DNA of 64,000 nt from the NCBI GenBank assembly GCA_964016885.1, contig OZ024750.1, positions 15,314,001 through 15,378,000 on the forward strand. Direction: 5' to 3'. The position numbers were made by a program, and so were the translations under genes. The notes below the pieces were generated by a model, which made no database searches, had not been told where the DNA came from, and saw nothing but the letters and a program-made list of their open reading frames with translations. Source of the DNA: Eledone cirrhosa. Lineage: Eukaryota. Shown here one piece after another: positions 1,006-64,000 of this stretch (the first letter of the stretch is position 1; the number at the start of each line of letters is the position of its first letter).

Positions 1006-1365
<360 letters not shown>

Positions 1366-23469: not shown

Positions 23470-23668
23470 AGAACAAAGATCTGATAACTAACTTTAACAA
23501 ACTATGACTAACCATTACTATCTCTGCCAACATCACGAGGGTTAATTTCCAAGATATTAGCTTCGTCTTAGGCATACGCACATTCAGAACCTGCCACAAA
23601 CCCAAAGAAAAACTTAGGTATATTCATAAGGATTTACCCCCGCTACCTATAGTCATAAAAAAATCTCA
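23470..23668 (+). pseudogene. Degenerate Penelope-like element reverse transcriptase remnant
   Basis: Manual translation KDLITNFNKL*LTITISANITRVNFQDISFVLGIRTFRTCHKPKEKLRYIHKDLPPLPIVIKK resembles the PLE RT7/thumb pattern ITI..N...VNFLD.......Y.KP....YIH..SNHPP.IIK. Interrupted by a SINE. Confidence 0.55.
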
Positions 23669-24590: not shown

Positions 24591-24622
<32 letters not shown>

Positions 24623-24623
<1 letters not shown>

Positions 24624-24718
24624 GGAACAAGTAAGACCCCGACGGCTGAGCTACTACCCTAAGTATTGAGTACTTTGGTGCGTTATGGTCCACCTGGTTC
24701 CTTACCACATTTCCTTCG

Positions 24719-24720
<2 letters not shown>
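24623..24720. mobile_element. Family A internally deleted copy
   Basis: Left arm to ...GGCTGAGCT is joined directly to ACTACCCTAAGTATTGAG...CCTTCGTT. Confidence 0.75.
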
Positions 24721-24777
<57 letters not shown>

Positions 24778-24816
24778 ATTAAATAAATGGAAAACTATAT
24801 TTATAAAACCATATTT

Positions 24817-24880
24817 ATTTCATTATATATATTTCGGGGATATCATATTAACAATATGCTATGCCTTCATCAGACAAAAT
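24817..24880 (-). ncRNA. Minimal type I hammerhead motif
   Basis: Minus strand: ATTTTGT-CTGATGA-aggcatagcatatt-gtt-aatatgatatcccc-GAAA-tatata-TA-ATGAAAT. Stem I includes G-U pairs; flanked by (TA)n tracts. Confidence 0.7.
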
Positions 24881-25083
24881 ACAATATAAACAGTTTTATA
24901 GATAAATATATTCGACATACCGTAATAAACATCAACTTCATTTGAAGAGGTTTACGCTAGCAGTGAAAATACAGAGAGAAAGTAAGAGAGAAAGAAAAGA
25001 AAATACTCCAAATATTTGTCGAGTGCTTTTATATCAGTTATAAATATTTACTAGTTGTAACCCAACAATTTTAAATATAACTT

Positions 25084-25191
<108 letters not shown>

Positions 25192-25452
25192 GTAATAAGA
25201 TGTATCATACCTAAACTGCTTCTAAATTATATCTAATGTTTCTTCTCTCTTCATAATGTACTTTATAGCTCTGATACTGGTTCAGTCTAATCCATTCGGA
25301 TTGGTTTGTCCCAGTTATTCATAGAGCAACATCGGTTAAGGTTGGCACCATTAACTCAAGGATAGATGTGGATATATGCATGTATATGCGTGTGTCCGCA
25401 TGTATCTGTGTGTTTCTCTATATATTGTATATATATATATATATATATATAT

Positions 25453-25641
25453 AACGAAGGAAATGTGGTAAGGAACCAGGTGGACCATAACGCACCAAAG
25501 TACTCAATACTTGAGGTAGTAGAGTGGGTAATAGGAACCAGTAAGACCCCGACAGCTGAGCTCAAGCCGTTTCGACGGCTAATTCTGGACTGAATTAGCC
25601 GTCGAAACGGCTTGAGCTCAGCTGTCGGGGTCTTACTGGTT

Positions 25642-25683
<42 letters not shown>

Positions 25684-25792
25684 AACCAGTAAGACCCCGA
25701 CAGCTGAGCTCAAGCCGTTTCGACGGCGGCTAATTCTGGACTGAATTAGCCGTCGAGACGGCTTGAGCTCAGCTGTCGGGGTCTTACTGGTT

Positions 25793-25795
<3 letters not shown>
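25453..25795. mobile_element. Palindromic (TA)n-embedded mini-element family A, two adjacent copies (25453-25644, 25681-25795)
   Basis: Arms AGGAACCAGTAAGACCCCGACAGCTGAGCTCAAGCCGTTTCGACGGC and its reverse complement; one arm is extended by about 80 bp to AACGAAGGAAATG. Every end abuts TA repeats. Confidence 0.8.
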
Positions 25796-25852
<57 letters not shown>

Positions 25853-26603: not shown

Positions 26604-26636
<33 letters not shown>

Positions 26637-26639
26637 TGA

Positions 26640-26688
26640 GATTCTACAGGACTAGAACTGTTTCATTCATTAGAAATCATCAGGAATC
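26640..26688 (-). ncRNA. Type I hammerhead motif, inverted copy of 26706-26754
   Basis: Exact reverse complement of the adjacent plus-strand motif, separated from it by 17 nt. Confidence 0.75.
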
Positions 26689-26705
26689 ACCCATTTCTGA
26701 TCACA

Positions 26706-26754
26706 GATTCCTGATGATTTCTAATGAATGAAACAGTTCTAGTCCTGTAGAATC
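26706..26754 (+). ncRNA. Type I hammerhead ribozyme motif
   Basis: GATTC-CTGATGA-t-TTC-taat-GAA-t-GAAA-CAG-ttctagtc-CTG-TA-GAATC: stem I GATTC/GAATC, full core, stems II and III, GUA cleavage site after 26749. U-U at the base of stem II. Confidence 0.75.
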
Positions 26755-26846
26755 TCATCTATATTAAAACTTTTATACTCTGCTATGTATTGAGTACCTT
26801 ACTTACTCTGGTTACCTCCGATTCAACCCGGAATAACGTACATATA

Positions 26847-27618: not shown

Positions 27619-27930
27619 AAGAAAGAAAGAGAGAAAGAAAAAGAGAGAAAGAAAGAGAGAGAGAGAGAAAGAGAGAGAGAGTGAGAGGGGGGGGGGAGAG
27701 AGTAGTATCAACATCAAAGGCACACAGAAAGACAGTTACTCTCTAGACCGATTCACGCTTCACTCACCATCTGACGCGGGAGTTACGAGTGCTGGTCTGT
27801 GCTTGGTTTACGGTATTTTCTGAATGTTTTGTTTACGGGTTCAGGCAATCAATGGTCGTATTTGCACACACACACATACATACATACATACATACATACA
27901 TAGATACATACATACATACATACATACATA

Positions 27931-28882
27931 CATGGTGGCTGCCAACTCGTTTTCGAGTACGGCCACTACTTTATATCCATGTAGGAGAACCCCTACCGAT
28001 GCGCTGAACGAGTGTGACTTTTTAGTCCAGCCAGCGACTTGAAAACTCTGGTACAAACACTACACTTGTGACAATTACTGACACATAGTGCTGGGCCCAT
28101 GGTACATACATACATACATGGTGGCTGCCAACTCGTTTTCGAGTACGGCCACTACTTTATATCCATGTAGGAGAACCCCTACCGATGCGCTGAACGAGTG
28201 TGACTTTTTAGTCCAGCCAGCGACTTGAAAACTCTGGTACAAACACTACACTTGTGACAATTACTGACACATAGTGCTGGGCCCATGGTACATACATACA
28301 TACATGGTGGCTGCCAACTCGTTTTCGAGTACGGGCACTACTTTATATCCATGTAGGAGAACCCCTACCGATGCCCTGAACGAGTGTGACTTTTTAGTCC
28401 AGCCAGCGACTTGAAAACTCTGGTACAAACACTACACTTGTGACAATTACTGACACATAGTGCTGGGCCCATGGTACATACATACATACATGGTGGCTGC
28501 CAACTCGTTTTCGAGTACGGCCACTACTTTATATCCATGTAGGAGAACCCCTACCGATGCGCTGAACGAGTGTGACTTTTTAGTCCAGCCAGCGACTTGA
28601 AAACTCTGGTACAAACACTACACTTGTGACAATTACTGACACATAGTGCTGGGCCCATGGTACATACATACATACATGGTGGCTGTCAACTCGTTTTCGA
28701 GTACGGCCACTACTTTATATCCATGTAGGAGAACCCCTACCGATGCGCTGAACGAGTGTGACTTTTTAGTCCAGCCAGCGACTTGAAAACTCTGGTACAA
28801 ACACTACACTTGTGACAATTATTGACACATAGTGCTGGGCCCTTGGTACCATGTGACGACAAGTGCAGAGAGATCTCCAGAT
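27931..28882 (-). repeat. Five 186-bp tandem copies of an RTE-type LINE 3' end
   Basis: Units start at 27931, 28117, 28303, 28489 and 28675. The minus strand encodes CSVCTRVFKSLAGLKSHTRSAHR* (C-terminal zinc finger), then a short 3'UTR with a CTCG-aaaa-CGAG hairpin and an (ATGT)n tail. Confidence 0.8.
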
Positions 28883-34598: not shown

Positions 34599-34764
34599 AA
34601 CGAATGAAATGTGATAAGGAACCAGGTGGACCATAACGCACCAAAGTACTCAATACTTAGGGTAGTAGAGTGGGTAATAGGAACAAGTAAGACCCCGACG
34701 GCTGAGCTCAAGCCGTTTCGACCGTCGAAACGGCTTGAGCTCAGCCGTCGGGGTCTTACTTGTT

Positions 34765-34831
<67 letters not shown>

Positions 34832-35211
34832 GGGGGGGGGTGCGCACATGTATATATGTATTCTAAATTTTAGAGGATTAGAGGATGCAATTCTTTAAAA
34901 CTTTTGAAAAATTCTTATTCATACACACATAAACACACGTTCACATATGTCCACACCCGAACACACCAATACACACACACACAGACATATATATATATAT
35001 ATATAACGAAGGAAATGTGGTGAGGAACCAGATCGACCATAACGCACCAAAGTACTCAATACTTAGGGTAGTAGAGTGGGTAATAGGAACGAGTAGGACC
35101 CCGACGGCTGAGCTCAAACCGTTTCGACGGCTAATTCTGGACTAATTTAGTCCAGAATTGGCCGTCGAAACGGTTTGACCTCAGCCAGCCGTCGGGGTCC
35201 TACTCGTTCCT
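34599..35211. mobile_element. Family A palindromic elements, two copies (34599-34767, 35005-35211)
   Basis: Same arms as the 25453 copy but different apex sequences. Confidence 0.8.
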
Positions 35212-35448
35212 ATATATATATATATGTGTGTGTGTAAGAAAAACAGATGTGAGAAAAACCACAGACCCTCCATCTCAATTCTACTTTTGAAAAGCAGAAG
35301 AACTGCGAAACCGGTAAAGGAACCAAATAAATATATATTTTTATAAAAAAAAGACTCCAGTTGCATTTTCGATTTCATCTTTTTTTCTTTATACTTTCAC
35401 TCGTGTAGGACACCTCGGTTATTTTTTCATTGTGTAAACAAACCTCAC

Positions 35449-37398: not shown

Positions 37399-37522
37399 CT
37401 AAGTGTGTACAGCATTATATATAGTGTTTGTATGCTACGCATGTTTTTTTGTTACTTTGTTTGTGCTTATAGCATTTTGTTTCTAGTTTTAGTGTAATAT
37501 GTCAACTATTTGTTCTGTATCG

Positions 37523-38150
37523 TATGTGTTATGTGAGTTGTGTTATTGCGAAGTATGGTGTAGTTTGTATGTGTTATGTGAGTTGTGTTATTGCGAAGTA
37601 TGGTGTAGTTTGTATGTGTTATGTGAGTTGTGTTATTGCGAAGTATGGTGTAGTTTGTATGTGTTATGTGAGTTGTGTTATTGCGAAGTATGGTGTAGTT
37701 TGTATGTGTTATGTGAGTTGTGTTATTGCGAATTATGGTGTAGTTTGTATGTGTTATGTGAGTTGTGTTATTGCGAAGTATGGTGTAGTTTGCATGTGTT
37801 ATGTGAGTTGTGTTATTGCGAAGTATAGTGTAGTTTGCATGTGTTATGTGAGTTGTGTTATTGCGAAGTATGGTGTAGTTTGTATGTGTTATGTGAGTTG
37901 TGTTATTGCAAAGTATGGTGTAGTTTGTATGTGTTATGTGAGTTGTGTTATTGCAAAGTATGGTGTAGTTTGTATGTGTTATGTGAGTTGTGTTATTGCA
38001 AAGTATAGTGTAGTTTGCATGTGTTATGTGAGTTGTGTTATTGCAAAGTATGGTGTAGTTTGTATGTGTTATGTGAGTTGTGTTATTGCAAAGTATAGTG
38101 TAGTTTGCATGTGTTATGTGAGTTGTGGTATTGCGAAGTATAGTGTGTTT
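37523..38150. repeat. 45-bp minisatellite, about 14 copies
   Basis: Unit TATGTGTTATGTGAGTTGTGTTATTGCGAAGTATGGTGTAGTTTG with few variants. Confidence 0.95.
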
Positions 38151-38794
38151 TATGCATTGTATAAGTTGTGTTATTGCAGGGATGTGGTGTTAATGTTTCA
38201 AGAAGGCGTGTTGCGTTATTTTAGTAACTGGAAATTATTTCGAGAATGCGCTATGTGTGTTGTGTTATTTTAGTAAGTGACGATTTTATATAGTATGTGC
38301 GAATTGAGTGCTATGATACAACATTTTCAATTATCAGTTATATTCGTTTAATTTCATATAGCACACTATGCATATTTCCATTTCCATCGTTTAACTCTGC
38401 TAGTTTCTTCCTCAACATCCTTCCACACAATAAGTTTGTCAGAAGGGATTGAAATCTGTTTAAGAATACTGGGATTCTCGCTCCAGTCTTCGGTAATTAC
38501 ATCATAATTATATCTAGATAATTCACCTTACTGCCATTGTCAATCTGACCCTGTATATATCAGAGTATCCTAGCCAAATCATCTAATATAATACTTTATA
38601 TAGCTTTATAAACTGATCAATTTCCCCATCAAAGTGTCCTCATATGGCCCAATGGATTTAGAGTAATACTATTGATTTTATTGTTAATGGTTTTATTGTC
38701 TTGAAAAAGAATTGAGTACATCTCCGACAAATTGCAACAACAAGCTAACTAAGGTTATCAGATGTGTGAAAAGGACCTAACACTAGTTACACTG

Positions 38795-38943: not shown

Positions 38944-38994
<51 letters not shown>

Positions 38995-39010
38995 TAAAAT
39001 AACAGATTAA

Positions 39011-39061
39011 AGTTTAAGCAAAGAATCGCTGCTTTCACCCTTAACGGGATCTTCTGAAACT
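39011..39061 (-). ncRNA. Hammerhead-like motif with variant core (CAGAAGA), unit 1 of tandem
   Basis: Minus strand: AGTTT-CAGAAGA-t-CCC-gttaa-GGG-t-GAAA-GCA-gcgattctt-TGC-TT-AAACT. All three stems form; U4 is replaced by A. Confidence 0.6.
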
Positions 39062-39368
39062 AACAAAGTCAATCTGTAAACGCAGAACTGGATATTTCAA
39101 AAAACGTTGCAACCGGAGGAAGACAGGAAGACGATACTTTGGTTAGTTTTAGGTATGTTTTCCTGCTTGGTACGGGTATGTTCTTTGTAGAAATATTCAG
39201 ATGTTGTTTCAGCATGATGAATATAAGTCAGTAGAGTGCTCAACCGAAGGAGCACATTAGTAATAATAATAAAATTGAAGACTAAAATCCAGAGAGGGCT
39301 CGATAAGGAAAATATATATCAAATATATAAGAACCGAAGAGCAAATATTTATTAAAATAACAGATTAA

Positions 39369-39419
39369 AGTTTAAGCAAAGAATCGCTGCTTTCACCCTT
39401 AACGGGATCTTCTGAAACT
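39369..39419 (-). ncRNA. Hammerhead-like motif, unit 2 of tandem
   Basis: Identical to 39011-39061, 358 bp further along. Confidence 0.6.
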
Positions 39420-39710
39420 AACAAAGTCAATCTGTAAACGCAGAACTGGATATTTCAAAAAACGTTGCAACCGGAGGAAGACAGGAAGACGATACTTTGG
39501 TTAGTTTTAGGTATGTTTTCCTGCTTGGTACGGGTATGTTCTTTGTAGAAATATTCAGATGTTGTTTCTGCATGATGAATATAAGTCAGTAGAGTGCTCA
39601 ACCGAAGGAGCACATTAGTAATAATAATAAAATTGAAGACTAAAATATATATATATATATATAATATATGTAAAGGGTATCAGTATGAGTTATTAACCCT
39701 GCCTTTTATT

Positions 39711-55018: not shown

Positions 55019-55093
<75 letters not shown>

Positions 55094-55346
55094 ATCAAAG
55101 TTCTTTCGTTGCACATCTGCAACGTCATCAAATAAATAAATAAAATAAAAATGGCGTAAACATTACAATACAATAGGAGGGAACAGGATAATAGTACCAC
55201 TGATGATGTTGCAGATGTGCAACGAAAGAACCAAACAGTGAGTGTGTTCTGTTATTATTTCTGTCAATATTATTACAACAATATGACCCTCCCCAAGTAT
55301 AACAATATTTGTTTCGACACACGATTTCATATAAAAAACCTTGCAA

Positions 55347-55350
<4 letters not shown>
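54860..55350. mobile_element. (TA)n-associated inverted-repeat family B (other copies ~13545-14110 and ~56515-57015)
   Basis: TTGGGGAGGGTCATATTG...ACACACTCACT recurs inverted at about 55230-55297; GTTTCGACACACGATTTCA is shared among the three loci. Confidence 0.65.
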
Positions 55351-55433
<83 letters not shown>

Positions 55434-56052: not shown

Positions 56053-56090
<38 letters not shown>

Positions 56091-56093
<3 letters not shown>

Positions 56094-56283
56094 AACCAGT
56101 AAGACCCCGACAGCTGAGCTCAAGCCGTCTCGACGGCTAATTCTGGTCCAGAATTAGCCGTCGAAACGGCTTGAGCTCAGCTGTCGGGGTCTTACTGGTT
56201 CCTATTACCCACTCTACTACCTCAAGTATTGAGTACTTTGGTGCGTTATGGTTCACCTGGTTCCTTACCACATTTCCTTCGTT
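56091..56283. mobile_element. Family A palindromic element (opposite orientation)
   Basis: Palindrome 56091-56203 plus a long arm ending ...CATTTCCTTCGTT; flanked by (TA)n. Confidence 0.8.
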
Positions 56284-56805
56284 ATATATATATATATATA
56301 TATATAAAACTAATTAAAATTTTGAAAGCCAAACAATGCGTTCTCCCTAACGCATTTGGCTTCCAAACTTTAAATTTGTGTTTCCTATTCAACAATACTT
56401 CAAGAAAGCTACAAAACTCTGTTATCATATATATATATATATATTATCATATATATATATATATATATATATATTATCATATATATATATATATATTATC
56501 ATATATATATATTTCGTTTCTGAATTTGTTTAGCAAGATTCTTTATCTGAAATCGTGTGTTGAAACCGATATTGTTATACTTTGGGAGGACAAAATGAAA
56601 ACACACACACATAGAACAAACAACCAACCAACAACATGTAAATAAATAAATAAATAAATAAATAAACAAATAGATAAATGAACACAAACACACACAGACA
56701 CCCGGATGTGGCGCATGCGCAAACTGAGCACACAACACACACACAGAAACAAAATGGCGTAGGACAGAAGAAAGGAAAGGCACAGAAACAAAGAAAGGAA
56801 TCCCC

Positions 56806-62627: not shown

Positions 62628-62750
62628 CGTCGAAACGGCTTGAGCTCAGCTGTCGGGGTCTTACTGGTTCCTATTACCCACTCTACTACCTCAAGTATTG
62701 AGTACTTTTGTGCGTTATGGTCCACATGGTTCCTTACCACATTTCCTTCG

Positions 62751-62829
<79 letters not shown>

Positions 62830-62942
62830 AGAGTCGAGGCTTGATGACTGAGCTATTGCCGTTTCAATAGTCAGCTGTCGGCCTCGACTCTTTATGATAT
62901 AGCCATACTCTCCTATCCCAAGTATCGAGTACTCTGTTGAGT
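62628..62942. mobile_element. Family A single-arm copy (62628-62752) and a diverged palindromic relative (62826-62942)
   Basis: The first starts at CGTCGAAACGG and runs to CCTTCGTT. The second has GAGTCGAGGC/GCCTCGACTC arms and the shared aagtatcgagtactctg segment. Confidence 0.7.
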
Positions 62943-64000
62943 AATAATCTAATTAATTTTAAACTGGTTCTATCCTGAATAAACTTAATGACGATTCTCT
63001 GACACATCGCTCCTACTTAGTATTAATATTACACTCTACTTATGAAGGAAACAGACCATAGTATAACACTACATACTATACTTAAACGGACCTACCTACA
63101 CATCGAGCGCTCAAGTGAACCAACAGTAACATGAGGTTAAAACACATTAAGCAATATTTTTTTTTTTTTTCAGTTGGGAACATCCAGACTTTTTTTAACC
63201 ATGACCATCCAGTAGAATTACAATTACTCACAATATACAAAATGGCCGCGAATTCAAAGCATTCTTTTCCGAATCTTTACCCAAGTGATTTATGTGAGTT
63301 ACGTTCGCAGGGTGTCCCGTGTCTTTATGTACTGTAATAGGACTAAATAAACACGACTGAGTCAATTACTTTTAAAGTGTAATGAATGAAAGGGGTCCAA
63401 CATTGTAACAGAAGCTACTGAAACAATCGATATTTTAGTGTTTTAAAACCAAAGTCTCGATAATTTTGTGATATTTAAGTTCAGATTAATTCTTTAGTGC
63501 TTATTGTCCAGAACATTTTCTATTTGCTATTAATAATCAGCTTCACATTTATTAATGTCTTAACGATATAGAGTTAAACATCTATAAACTTTAATATCCT
63601 TTGATTTTTCTTTGATACGACTACTTTCATAACATTATGTATTGAATGTAACTTTCATTCGCTCATAAGAATACTAATAAATGTTGTAGCTGTCACTAAA
63701 CGATGGCATTTCACCCTTACAAGGAACACTTATATTAAATTCTTTTAGAAGAAATTATTTTGTGAATTAATCCTAATATGAAAGCACGTACATGCTTTCA
63801 TCTTGGAATTCAAATTATAAATAGCTTAACGAATTGTGGAATTGTGCTGATAATGCAAGGACTATAAATGATTACCATAGAACAGAACTGTCTGGTTAAA
63901 TACAAGTATATCAGGTACAGTAAAAATGTTTGTCATGTTAAAAATATTACATTTTGCTGGAAGTTGTACTTCGTCTTGCAAACTATATGGTCAAATTATA

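What the first reader, a model, noticed from the sequence alone, without database searches (positions are those of the whole stretch)
25453..25795. Family A palindromes look like hammerheads folded back at stem II
Seen: about 9 related copies (1039, 24623, 25453, 25681, 34599, 35005, 56091, 62628, 62826). One strand reads [hairpin GACGGCTAATTC..GAATTAGCCGTC]-GAAA-CGGC-ttgagctca-GCTG-TC-GGGGTC, which is stem II, GAAA, stem III, a GUC site and the 3' strand of stem I. Where CUGANGA should be, there is instead the reverse complement of that same 3' half. The apex differs between copies (ctggactg, ctggtccag, ctggactaatttagtccag, gaccgtc). The short arm stops at ...GTTCCTAT, a microhomology to (TA)n, and the long arm ends at CCTTCGTT. 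Inference: cDNA synthesis snaps back on the stem II hairpin and copies itself, repeatedly turning a ribozyme retroelement into an asymmetric palindrome that mimics a MITE.
Basis: partly seen in the sequence, partly recalled or inferred. Interest (0 to 1): 0.8.

Follow-up and report, generated by a model that had tools for sequence, protein, structure and literature searches.

The report
Penelope stubs mark their RNA start
These small lopsided palindromes are over ten thousand stub copies of a known kind of ribozyme-motif-carrying jumping gene, and their centres pile up at what is likely the capped start of its RNA, which suggests each stub is two short copies made from both sides of one DNA cut and joined back to back.

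Summary
The repeats are real (9 of 9 located). They are the shortest insertions of a Hydra-type Penelope-like retroelement (PLE), not a MITE and not a hammerhead folded back at stem II. Longer copies in the same genome carry an intact 719-aa ORF (telomerase-like RT plus GIY-YIG motifs) and a full type I hammerhead motif with a U3-A8 core, not CUGANGA. At least 12,010 mini-palindromes exist. Almost all pair one tailed with one untailed arm; arms start at two fixed points about 80 nt apart. Arm ends pile up at an initiator-like site 29-31 nt behind a TATA-like box; only 3,963 of 17,171 arms reaching it run 7 nt further, and a single C/G between two such arms beats the templated A/T 256 to 50, as copying a cap would give. 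The untailed arm is often the longer, which snap-back alone cannot produce. Best reading: both target strands likely prime on one capped RNA, both cDNAs run off its 5' end and are end-joined. No RNA data were found. The scan already noted PLE stubs and twin priming on other DNA of this genome; the start-site and cap reading was not found there or in my paper searches.

The parts
25454..25531 (-). One-sided tail: the roughly 80 nt between the two copying start points (RNA +62 to +139 of the parent)
   Evidence: matches parent L054 downstream of the hammerhead; holds a bulged ACTC/GAGT hairpin (fold)
25532..25591 (-). Tailed arm, palindromic part; ends exactly at RNA +1 (inferred start site) at 25591
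25592..25646 (+). Untailed arm, RNA +7 to +61: 3' half of the hammerhead motif (stem II 3' strand, GAAA 25604-25607, stem III, GTC 25624-25626, stem I 3' strand), ending in TAT
25679..25797 (.). Second copy with two untailed arms and the same apex; probably a local duplication of its neighbour
25419..25453 (.). (TA)n target, left
25644..25681 (.). (TA)n between the two copies
25795..25849 (.). (TA)n target, right
24621..24722 (+). Family copy; arms do not overlap (untailed +61 to +30, tailed from +70)
34599..34769 (-). Family copy, apex at about +14/+16
35003..35213 (-). Family copy, both arms reach the inferred start region
56089..56285 (+). Family copy, arms end at +4 and +2
62628..62754 (+). 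Family copy, tailed arm only, from +15
1039..1176 (+). Diverged relative with the same layout
   Evidence: 84% over 37 nt, 90% over 58 nt
62826..62945 (+). More distant relative: short palindrome plus tail-like stretch
   Evidence: 79% over 39 nt, E about 1e-3; weak assignment

Best explanation
The palindromes are minimal insertions of a Hydra-type Penelope-like retroelement, likely made when both strands of a cut (TA)n site prime reverse transcription at two internal points of one capped RNA, both short cDNAs likely run off its 5' end, and repair would join them head to head. Shown: parent ORF, two fixed arm starts (+61 and about +141, each ending in TAT), one tailed plus one untailed arm per insertion, a sharp wall of arm ends at about -4 to +1, independent messy junctions. 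Inferred: that the wall is the transcription start, that the extra C/G is the copied cap, that both arms come from one RNA molecule (the second polymerase displacing the first cDNA), and that host end-joining closes the gap. The stubs lack promoter box, ribozyme core and ORF and are probably dead on arrival. The 10-15% of arms that pass the wall likely used a tandem read-through or circular RNA, or jumped templates.
For: Parent: intact 719-aa ORF in L054; model pLDDT 84.6, best structural matches telomerase TERT, E 1e-8; Hydra motifs present. Layout: the long copies mapped are built of opposed 5'-truncated segments ending at reference 3244 and 3322. Pairing: 75 of 78 distinct mini-palindromes classed tailed+untailed; on inspection one more is too, one is damaged, one (window 25681) is untailed twice. 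Wall: untailed arm ends in a 14-nt zone in 61 of 90 insertions, tailed arm in 48 of 84; only 13 of 90 and 8 of 84 go further upstream; genome-wide 17,171 arms reach +1, 9,506 keep two more templated bases, 3,963 keep seven. TATA-like box at -29 (-31 in other subfamilies) and TTAGT/TCAGT at +1 (consensus recalled). One base between two arms ending at +1: C/G 256 vs A/T 50; 20 of the 256 fetched span four subfamily haplotypes, and the extra base sits on the tailed arm in 12, on the untailed arm in 7, 1 undetermined (orientation of L228 corrected). Tandem units in L216 and L207 each begin at -2 to +4. Untailed arm longer in 29 of 84. In vitro a PLE protein cuts and extends both strands and starts at two internal sites that bound the tail (PMC11167929). 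Untemplated G as cap evidence is used for L1 and SVA (PMC4859970).
Against: No transcript evidence: the start site and cap are inferred from DNA only. In an unbiased set of 46 arms that stop near +1, the base before it is T 22, G 12, C 9, A 3, and about half of the G and most C can be explained by the partner arm, so the cap signal rests mainly on the single-base class. The extra base could be ordinary terminal transferase activity. The wall is 5-10 nt wide and A/T runs blur it. A strong RT pause at RNA structure would also give a wall. 55 of 84 copies (untailed arm not longer by more than 3 nt) are individually compatible with snap-back, and matching arms are predicted by both models. Later deletion at palindrome centres could create some of the asymmetry. 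The 90-copy sample is the first 90 of 18,316 hits along one contig and requires an intact untailed end.
Confidence: 0.7

Rival explanations
1. Snap-back (first reader; akin to the published self-priming idea): one cDNA folds back near stem II and copies itself; later deletions at the centre create the asymmetric cases.
For: Arms match within copies (60 of 66; within-copy identity beats the best other copy in 16 of 20 long copies, ties in 1, loses in 3). 55 of 84 copies are nested as it predicts. PMC3846280 section 11 interprets head-to-head PLE palindromes as self-priming on an antisense template.
Against: Untailed arm longer in 29 of 84, by kilobases in L096, L098, L099, L100, L102, L108; many such arms still end exactly at the wall while the tailed arm is short; it gives no reason for a fixed end at +61 in TAT; the extra base lies on the untailed arm in 7 of 19 oriented cases; the apex is not at the parent's stem II loop by pairing but at a promoter-like site.
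Confidence: 0.12
2. Twin priming is right, but the wall is an RT stall at RNA structure or a bound protein inside a longer RNA, not a transcription start.
For: The wall lies in the stem II loop of the hammerhead motif; an earlier scan note reports another family breaking at hammerhead stem I (e1-9506843, untested here). No RNA data exist here.
Against: TATA-like and initiator-like motifs at the right spacing, the 256 vs 50 C/G excess, and tandem units starting at the wall. The wall is on the 3' side of a weakly paired loop, and RT has by then passed the stronger helices (fold).
Confidence: 0.13
3. The stubs are a self-propagating non-autonomous family (SINE-like or MITE-like) copied from a few master palindromes.
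For: Very high copy number (12,010 exact mini-palindromes), fixed ends, recurring apexes.
Against: Apexes vary widely and include untemplated inserts; the same apex occurs on four haplotypes and in both orientations; a continuous length series links stubs to ORF-bearing copies; the ORF is RT-endonuclease, not a transposase.
Confidence: 0.05

Closest known systems
Hydra clade of C-terminal EN+ Penelope-like elements (Craig et al. 2021, PMC8557442; includes Hydra-1_Obim)
   Same: Single ORF, RW[K/R], DKT, CxCX5C linker, no CCHH, CxxC and CxH motifs, (TA)n targets, hammerhead near the 3' end, inverted 5'-truncated copy and one-sided tail.
   Different: Not the listed Hydra-1_Obim family (three of this family's DNA motifs are absent from the supplement, its hammerhead has a CTGAAGA core). 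Here the core is U3-A8, the tail is about 80 nt rather than 30-40, the unit is about 3.6 kb rather than under 3 kb, and most insertions are 110-200 nt stubs.
Poseidon PAc of Anolis in vitro (Frangieh et al. 2024, PMC11167929)
   Same: Both strands cut and extended, two internal RT start sites bounding the tail, AT-rich targets.
   Different: PAc starts lie inside the ORF and without target homology; here they lie in the 5' UTR and share TAT with the target. The parts read (1-2 of 4) do not explain inverted arms or describe run-off stubs.
U3-A8 hammerhead variant of Cercyon PLEs (Cervera and de la Pena 2014, PMC4209133)
   Same: Same compensated core pair; type I; opposed dual motifs 100-700 bp apart attributed to truncated PLEs.
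   Different: Here helix III is 4-5 bp with a 9-nt near-palindromic loop, stem II has a 35-40 nt loop that holds the predicted promoter, and one subfamily has a C3-A8 mismatch.
L1 twin priming (cited in PMC4859970; Ostertag and Kazazian 2001 not read)
   Same: Both target strands prime on one RNA, giving an inversion joined by repair.
   Different: L1 segments do not overlap and the second site is variable; here both sites are fixed, near the 5' end, and the cDNAs usually overlap, giving a palindrome.

Membership tests
Penelope-like elements (EN+) | Telomerase-related reverse transcriptase | tested here: met
   Fold search top five hits are TERTs, E 1e-8 to 2e-7; motifs FDI..Y, YRDD. Pfam and PDB sequence searches found nothing.
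Penelope-like elements (EN+) | C-terminal GIY-YIG endonuclease in the same ORF | tested here: met
   IYQC at 592 and YIG at 606 with downstream R, H, E, N; Atlas neighbours carry PF01541. No direct HMM hit on this protein.
Penelope-like elements (EN+) | pLTR tandems, inverted 5'-truncated copy, one-sided tail | tested here: met
Hydra clade PLE | RWK, DKT, CxCX5C linker, no CCHH, CxxC and CxH around E and N | tested here: met
   RLRWR (RWR rather than RWK), DKTG, CNCPDRSIC, one C between GIY and YIG, CNLC, CKH against section 11 of PMC8557442
Hydra clade PLE | Insertion into (TA)n | tested here: met
   124 of 138 tail ends continue TATATA, 5 continue into the parent
Hydra clade PLE | Grouping with Hydra RTs in a phylogeny | not tested
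   Reference sequences were seen only as text in the paper's supplement; no tree was built.
Hydra clade PLE | Canonical hammerhead core | tested here: inconclusive
   A complete type I motif is present but with the U3-A8 variant core, not CUGANGA.
Type I hammerhead ribozyme | Core 3-9, GAAA, UH site, three stems, G10.1-C11.1, paired 3-8 | tested here: met
   TTGAGAA or TTGATAA (variation at free position 7 in 3 of 77 arms), stems can form at -26.1 vs -27.6 kcal/mol for the best fold; two other families show the same design with different paired stems. About 30 of 77 arms (counted by eye, sample enriched by the search pattern) have C3-A8.
Type I hammerhead ribozyme | Self-cleavage | not testable with these tools
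   No RNA data; no Rfam match in the window, which holds no full motif of this family.
MITE / TIR DNA transposon | Fixed symmetric TIRs and a cognate transposase | tested here: not met
   Arm lengths vary from about 35 nt to over 3 kb, ends are asymmetric, the linked ORF is RT-endonuclease.
Non-LTR retrozyme | Non-coding tandem units each with a full hammerhead | tested here: not met
   Stubs lack the core; full units carry an ORF; definition from bioRxiv 10.64898/2026.07.22.740005.

The most novel reading that the evidence does not exclude
PLEs replicate through a retrovirus-like strong-stop step. The promoter sits inside the hammerhead's stem II loop, so the mRNA's 5' end has only half a ribozyme and its 3' end a whole one. 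Cleavage after +41 would leave a 41-nt terminal repeat, through which the two short run-off cDNAs transfer to the RNA's 3' end to make full-length copies; the stubs are the failed transfers, frozen in the genome by the ten thousand.
Probability: 0.25. Interest if true: 0.8.

Novelty: new member of a known kind. Interest (0 to 1): 0.5.

Why it matters
How PLEs, the closest relatives of telomerase, make their inverted and tailed insertions is stated as open in PMC8557442 and PMC3846280. This family offers more than ten thousand independent junctions, an intact ORF and exact coordinates (start about +1, copying starts +61 and +141, predicted cleavage +41), so twin priming, cap copying and strand transfer each become a simple RACE or in vitro test. 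Practically, such stubs would be easy to mis-annotate as MITEs. As an element, it is one more Hydra-type PLE family.

Tried and rejected
Rfam scan of the window: 0 matches. DNA search of the own genome: nothing, common words are skipped; patterns were used instead. Pfam: 0 families for 7 of 8 ORFs tested, the eighth an unrelated LINE-type RT; nothing credible for 18 aligned relatives; PDB sequence searches empty. Homologue search gave 2,054 relatives but no PLE names. Unconstrained fold of the hammerhead region is no better than shuffles (z -0.40) and prefers a competing hairpin over GAAA. Within-family alignment too uniform (95%) for a covariation test. Test of strand transfer: 0 of 5 near-full-length arms end at +1 (they end at +124, +164, +230, +331, +351), two others read through; this does not support transfer between molecules and does not separate a circle from transfer within one molecule. 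A splice acceptor at the wall was considered and dropped, since arms stop there instead of continuing into an upstream exon. Paper searches for the run-off or twin-priming reading of PLEs found none; the library lacks most subscription papers, including older Penelope promoter work.

Full report
Observation. The window is AT-rich animal DNA full of (TA)n, from a 3.0-Gb genome G000. The copy at 25454-25646 is a 115-nt palindrome with a 78-nt extension on one side; 25679-25797 is a tail-less twin with the same apex, probably a local duplication. Three copies are incomplete in different ways and two are diverged relatives. Rfam finds nothing in the window.

The parent. An exact 28-mer next to the apex occurs 9,506 times in G000, often as opposed pairs from 0 to several kb apart. 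I fetched 32 stretches around such sites and mapped them to one natural copy. The long insertions consist of 5'-truncated segments in opposite orientation, ending at one of two fixed points 78-80 nt apart, some with extra tandem units. Locus L054 holds an intact 719-aa ORF. Pfam and PDB sequence searches miss it, but its model (pLDDT 84.6) matches telomerase TERT best, and it has RLRWR, DKTG, FDI..Y, YRDD, CxCX5C, a GIY-YIG core without CCHH, CxxC and CxH. These are the published diagnostics of the Hydra clade of PLEs, which also insert into (TA)n (PMC8557442 section 11). Inverted 5'-truncated copies with a one-sided tail are a stated PLE hallmark (passages). The supplement lists an octopus Hydra family, but three of this family's DNA motifs are absent there. 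That the host is a cephalopod is my impression from the repeat landscape and earlier scan notes, not a test.

The hammerhead. Long arms instead carry ACCCC then TTGAGAA 43 nt upstream of the apex (1,662 exact hits of one subfamily pattern; 77 distinct arms). This is the U3-A8 compensated core reported for Cercyon PLEs (PMC4209133, parts 1-2 of 4 read). Position 7 varies (3 of 77 arms), and two other families in my loci show the same design with different paired stems. Against an active ribozyme: about 30 of 77 arms have C3-A8 (counted by eye; sample enriched by my pattern), the active fold is 1.5 kcal/mol above the best fold, and the region folds no better than shuffles. Cleavage is untested.

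How common the stubs are. Exact counts: 18,316 untailed ends in TA, 21,986 tail ends in TA, 12,010 palindromes with at most 30 nt at the centre. Of 78 distinct mini-palindromes in my loci and the window, 75 were classed as one tailed plus one untailed arm; of the other three one is a misclassification, one is damaged and one is window 25681. Both start points end in TAT in the parent, which can pair with the target.

Why the apex sits where it does. In the first 90 untailed-end hits along contig C1, the untailed arm ends within a 14-nt zone in 61 of 90 and the tailed arm in 48 of 84 (6 had no resolved partner); only 13 and 8 extend further upstream. Genome-wide, 17,171 arms reach the A I call +1, 9,506 keep two more parent bases and 3,963 keep seven. 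That A lies in TTAGT (TCAGT in one subfamily), 29-31 nt behind a TATA-like box; the initiator and TATA consensus are recalled knowledge. When two arms both end at +1 with one base between them, that base is C/G in 256 loci and the parent's A/T in 50. Untemplated G is the accepted sign of a copied cap in L1 and SVA (PMC4859970 passages). Twenty of the 256 were fetched: they span four haplotypes, and the base is on the tailed arm in 12, the untailed arm in 7, undetermined in 1. Tandem units in L216 and L207 each begin at -2 to +4, as template jumps from an RNA end would. Weaknesses: in an unbiased set of 46 stopped arms G precedes +1 in only 12, about half explicable by the partner arm; A/T runs blur the wall; no RNA data were available.

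Snap-back or two primers. Arms agree within copies: 60 of 66 at three diagnostic sites against 30% expected, all six mismatches single-site (66 of 90 copies could be scored). That fits both models. Snap-back from the tailed cDNA requires the untailed arm to be nested in the tailed one. It is longer in 29 of 84 (more than 50 nt longer in 10, against 3 the other way) and by kilobases in six long copies. In 17 of 84 the tailed arm stops beyond +27, many near or before +61, as if it met the first cDNA. A PLE protein in vitro cuts and extends both strands and starts at two internal sites that bound the tail (PMC11167929, parts 1-2 of 4). The published reading of PLE palindromes that I found is self-priming on an antisense template (PMC3846280 section 11). 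Later deletion at palindrome centres cannot be excluded for individual copies.

Mechanism. Shown: parent, two starts, strict pairing, wall, independent junctions. Inferred: a capped mRNA begins inside the hammerhead's stem II loop; the enzyme cuts both strands of (TA)n; each end pairs through TAT at +61 or +141 of the same RNA; both cDNAs run to the cap, gain a few untemplated bases and are end-joined. The result is a stub without promoter box, core or ORF. Long copies need a tandem or circular template (circles proposed in PMC4209133) or a transfer. If the 3' hammerhead cleaves after +41, the mRNA would have a 41-nt terminal repeat suited to a strong-stop transfer; my one test was uninformative to negative (0 of 5 near-full arms end at +1).

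Prior notice and novelty. Earlier scan notes on other DNA of this genome already call such palindromes Hydra-type PLE stubs, propose twin priming, and describe twin bulged hairpins behind the two starts. I confirm the first two independently here and see both hairpins in the parent. A start-site or cap explanation of the apex was not among the 16 notes shown or the word search, nor in paper searches. Also seen: bioRxiv 10.64898/2026.07.22.740005 part 1 of 5 (its supplements are closed), passages of PMC13282606 and PMC12910113, nothing bearing on the mechanism.

Verdict. A new member of a known kind; observation confirmed, first reading partly supported; interest 0.5, resting on the testable start-site and twin-priming reading.

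Noticed in passing
window 26635-26841: Another asymmetric palindrome in (TA)n from an unrelated family, with a CTGATGA...GAAA hammerhead-like motif and a tail sharing GTATTGAGTAC with this family's tail.
   Followed up: no
window 55090-55351: Element between TA runs with a short inverted arm and a CTGATGA-hairpin-GAAA motif; probably a stub of another PLE family.
   Followed up: no
window about 24774-24900, minus strand: Minimal hammerhead-like motif (CTGATGA, long stem II, GAAA) of another repeat directly beside copy 24623, sharing its (TA)n run.
   Followed up: no
window 25177-25420; L094:1722-2700, L175, L187, L203: Inverted fragment of a second family whose longer copies carry a U3-A8 hammerhead motif (TTGATAA core) in opposed pairs.
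   Followed up: partly
L216 and L207: Tandem units of about 257 nt that run from the inferred RNA start to just inside the ORF, repeated with the same junction; suggests a preferred jump site at about +254.
   Followed up: partly
parent RNA +67 to +90 and +145 to +166 (L054:4415-4515): Two similar bulged hairpins lie 3-5 nt behind each copying start point, as earlier scan notes report for other Hydra-type families.
   Followed up: partly
window 27917-28849, 37522-38177, 38987-39646: Near-perfect tandem arrays: 186 nt x 5.0 (99%), 45 nt x 14.6 (96%), 358 nt x 1.8 (99%).
   Followed up: no
window 23475-23630: Weak translated match (37% over 52 aa, E 9e-4) to the RT thumb region of the parent ORF; possible old PLE remnant.
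   Followed up: no
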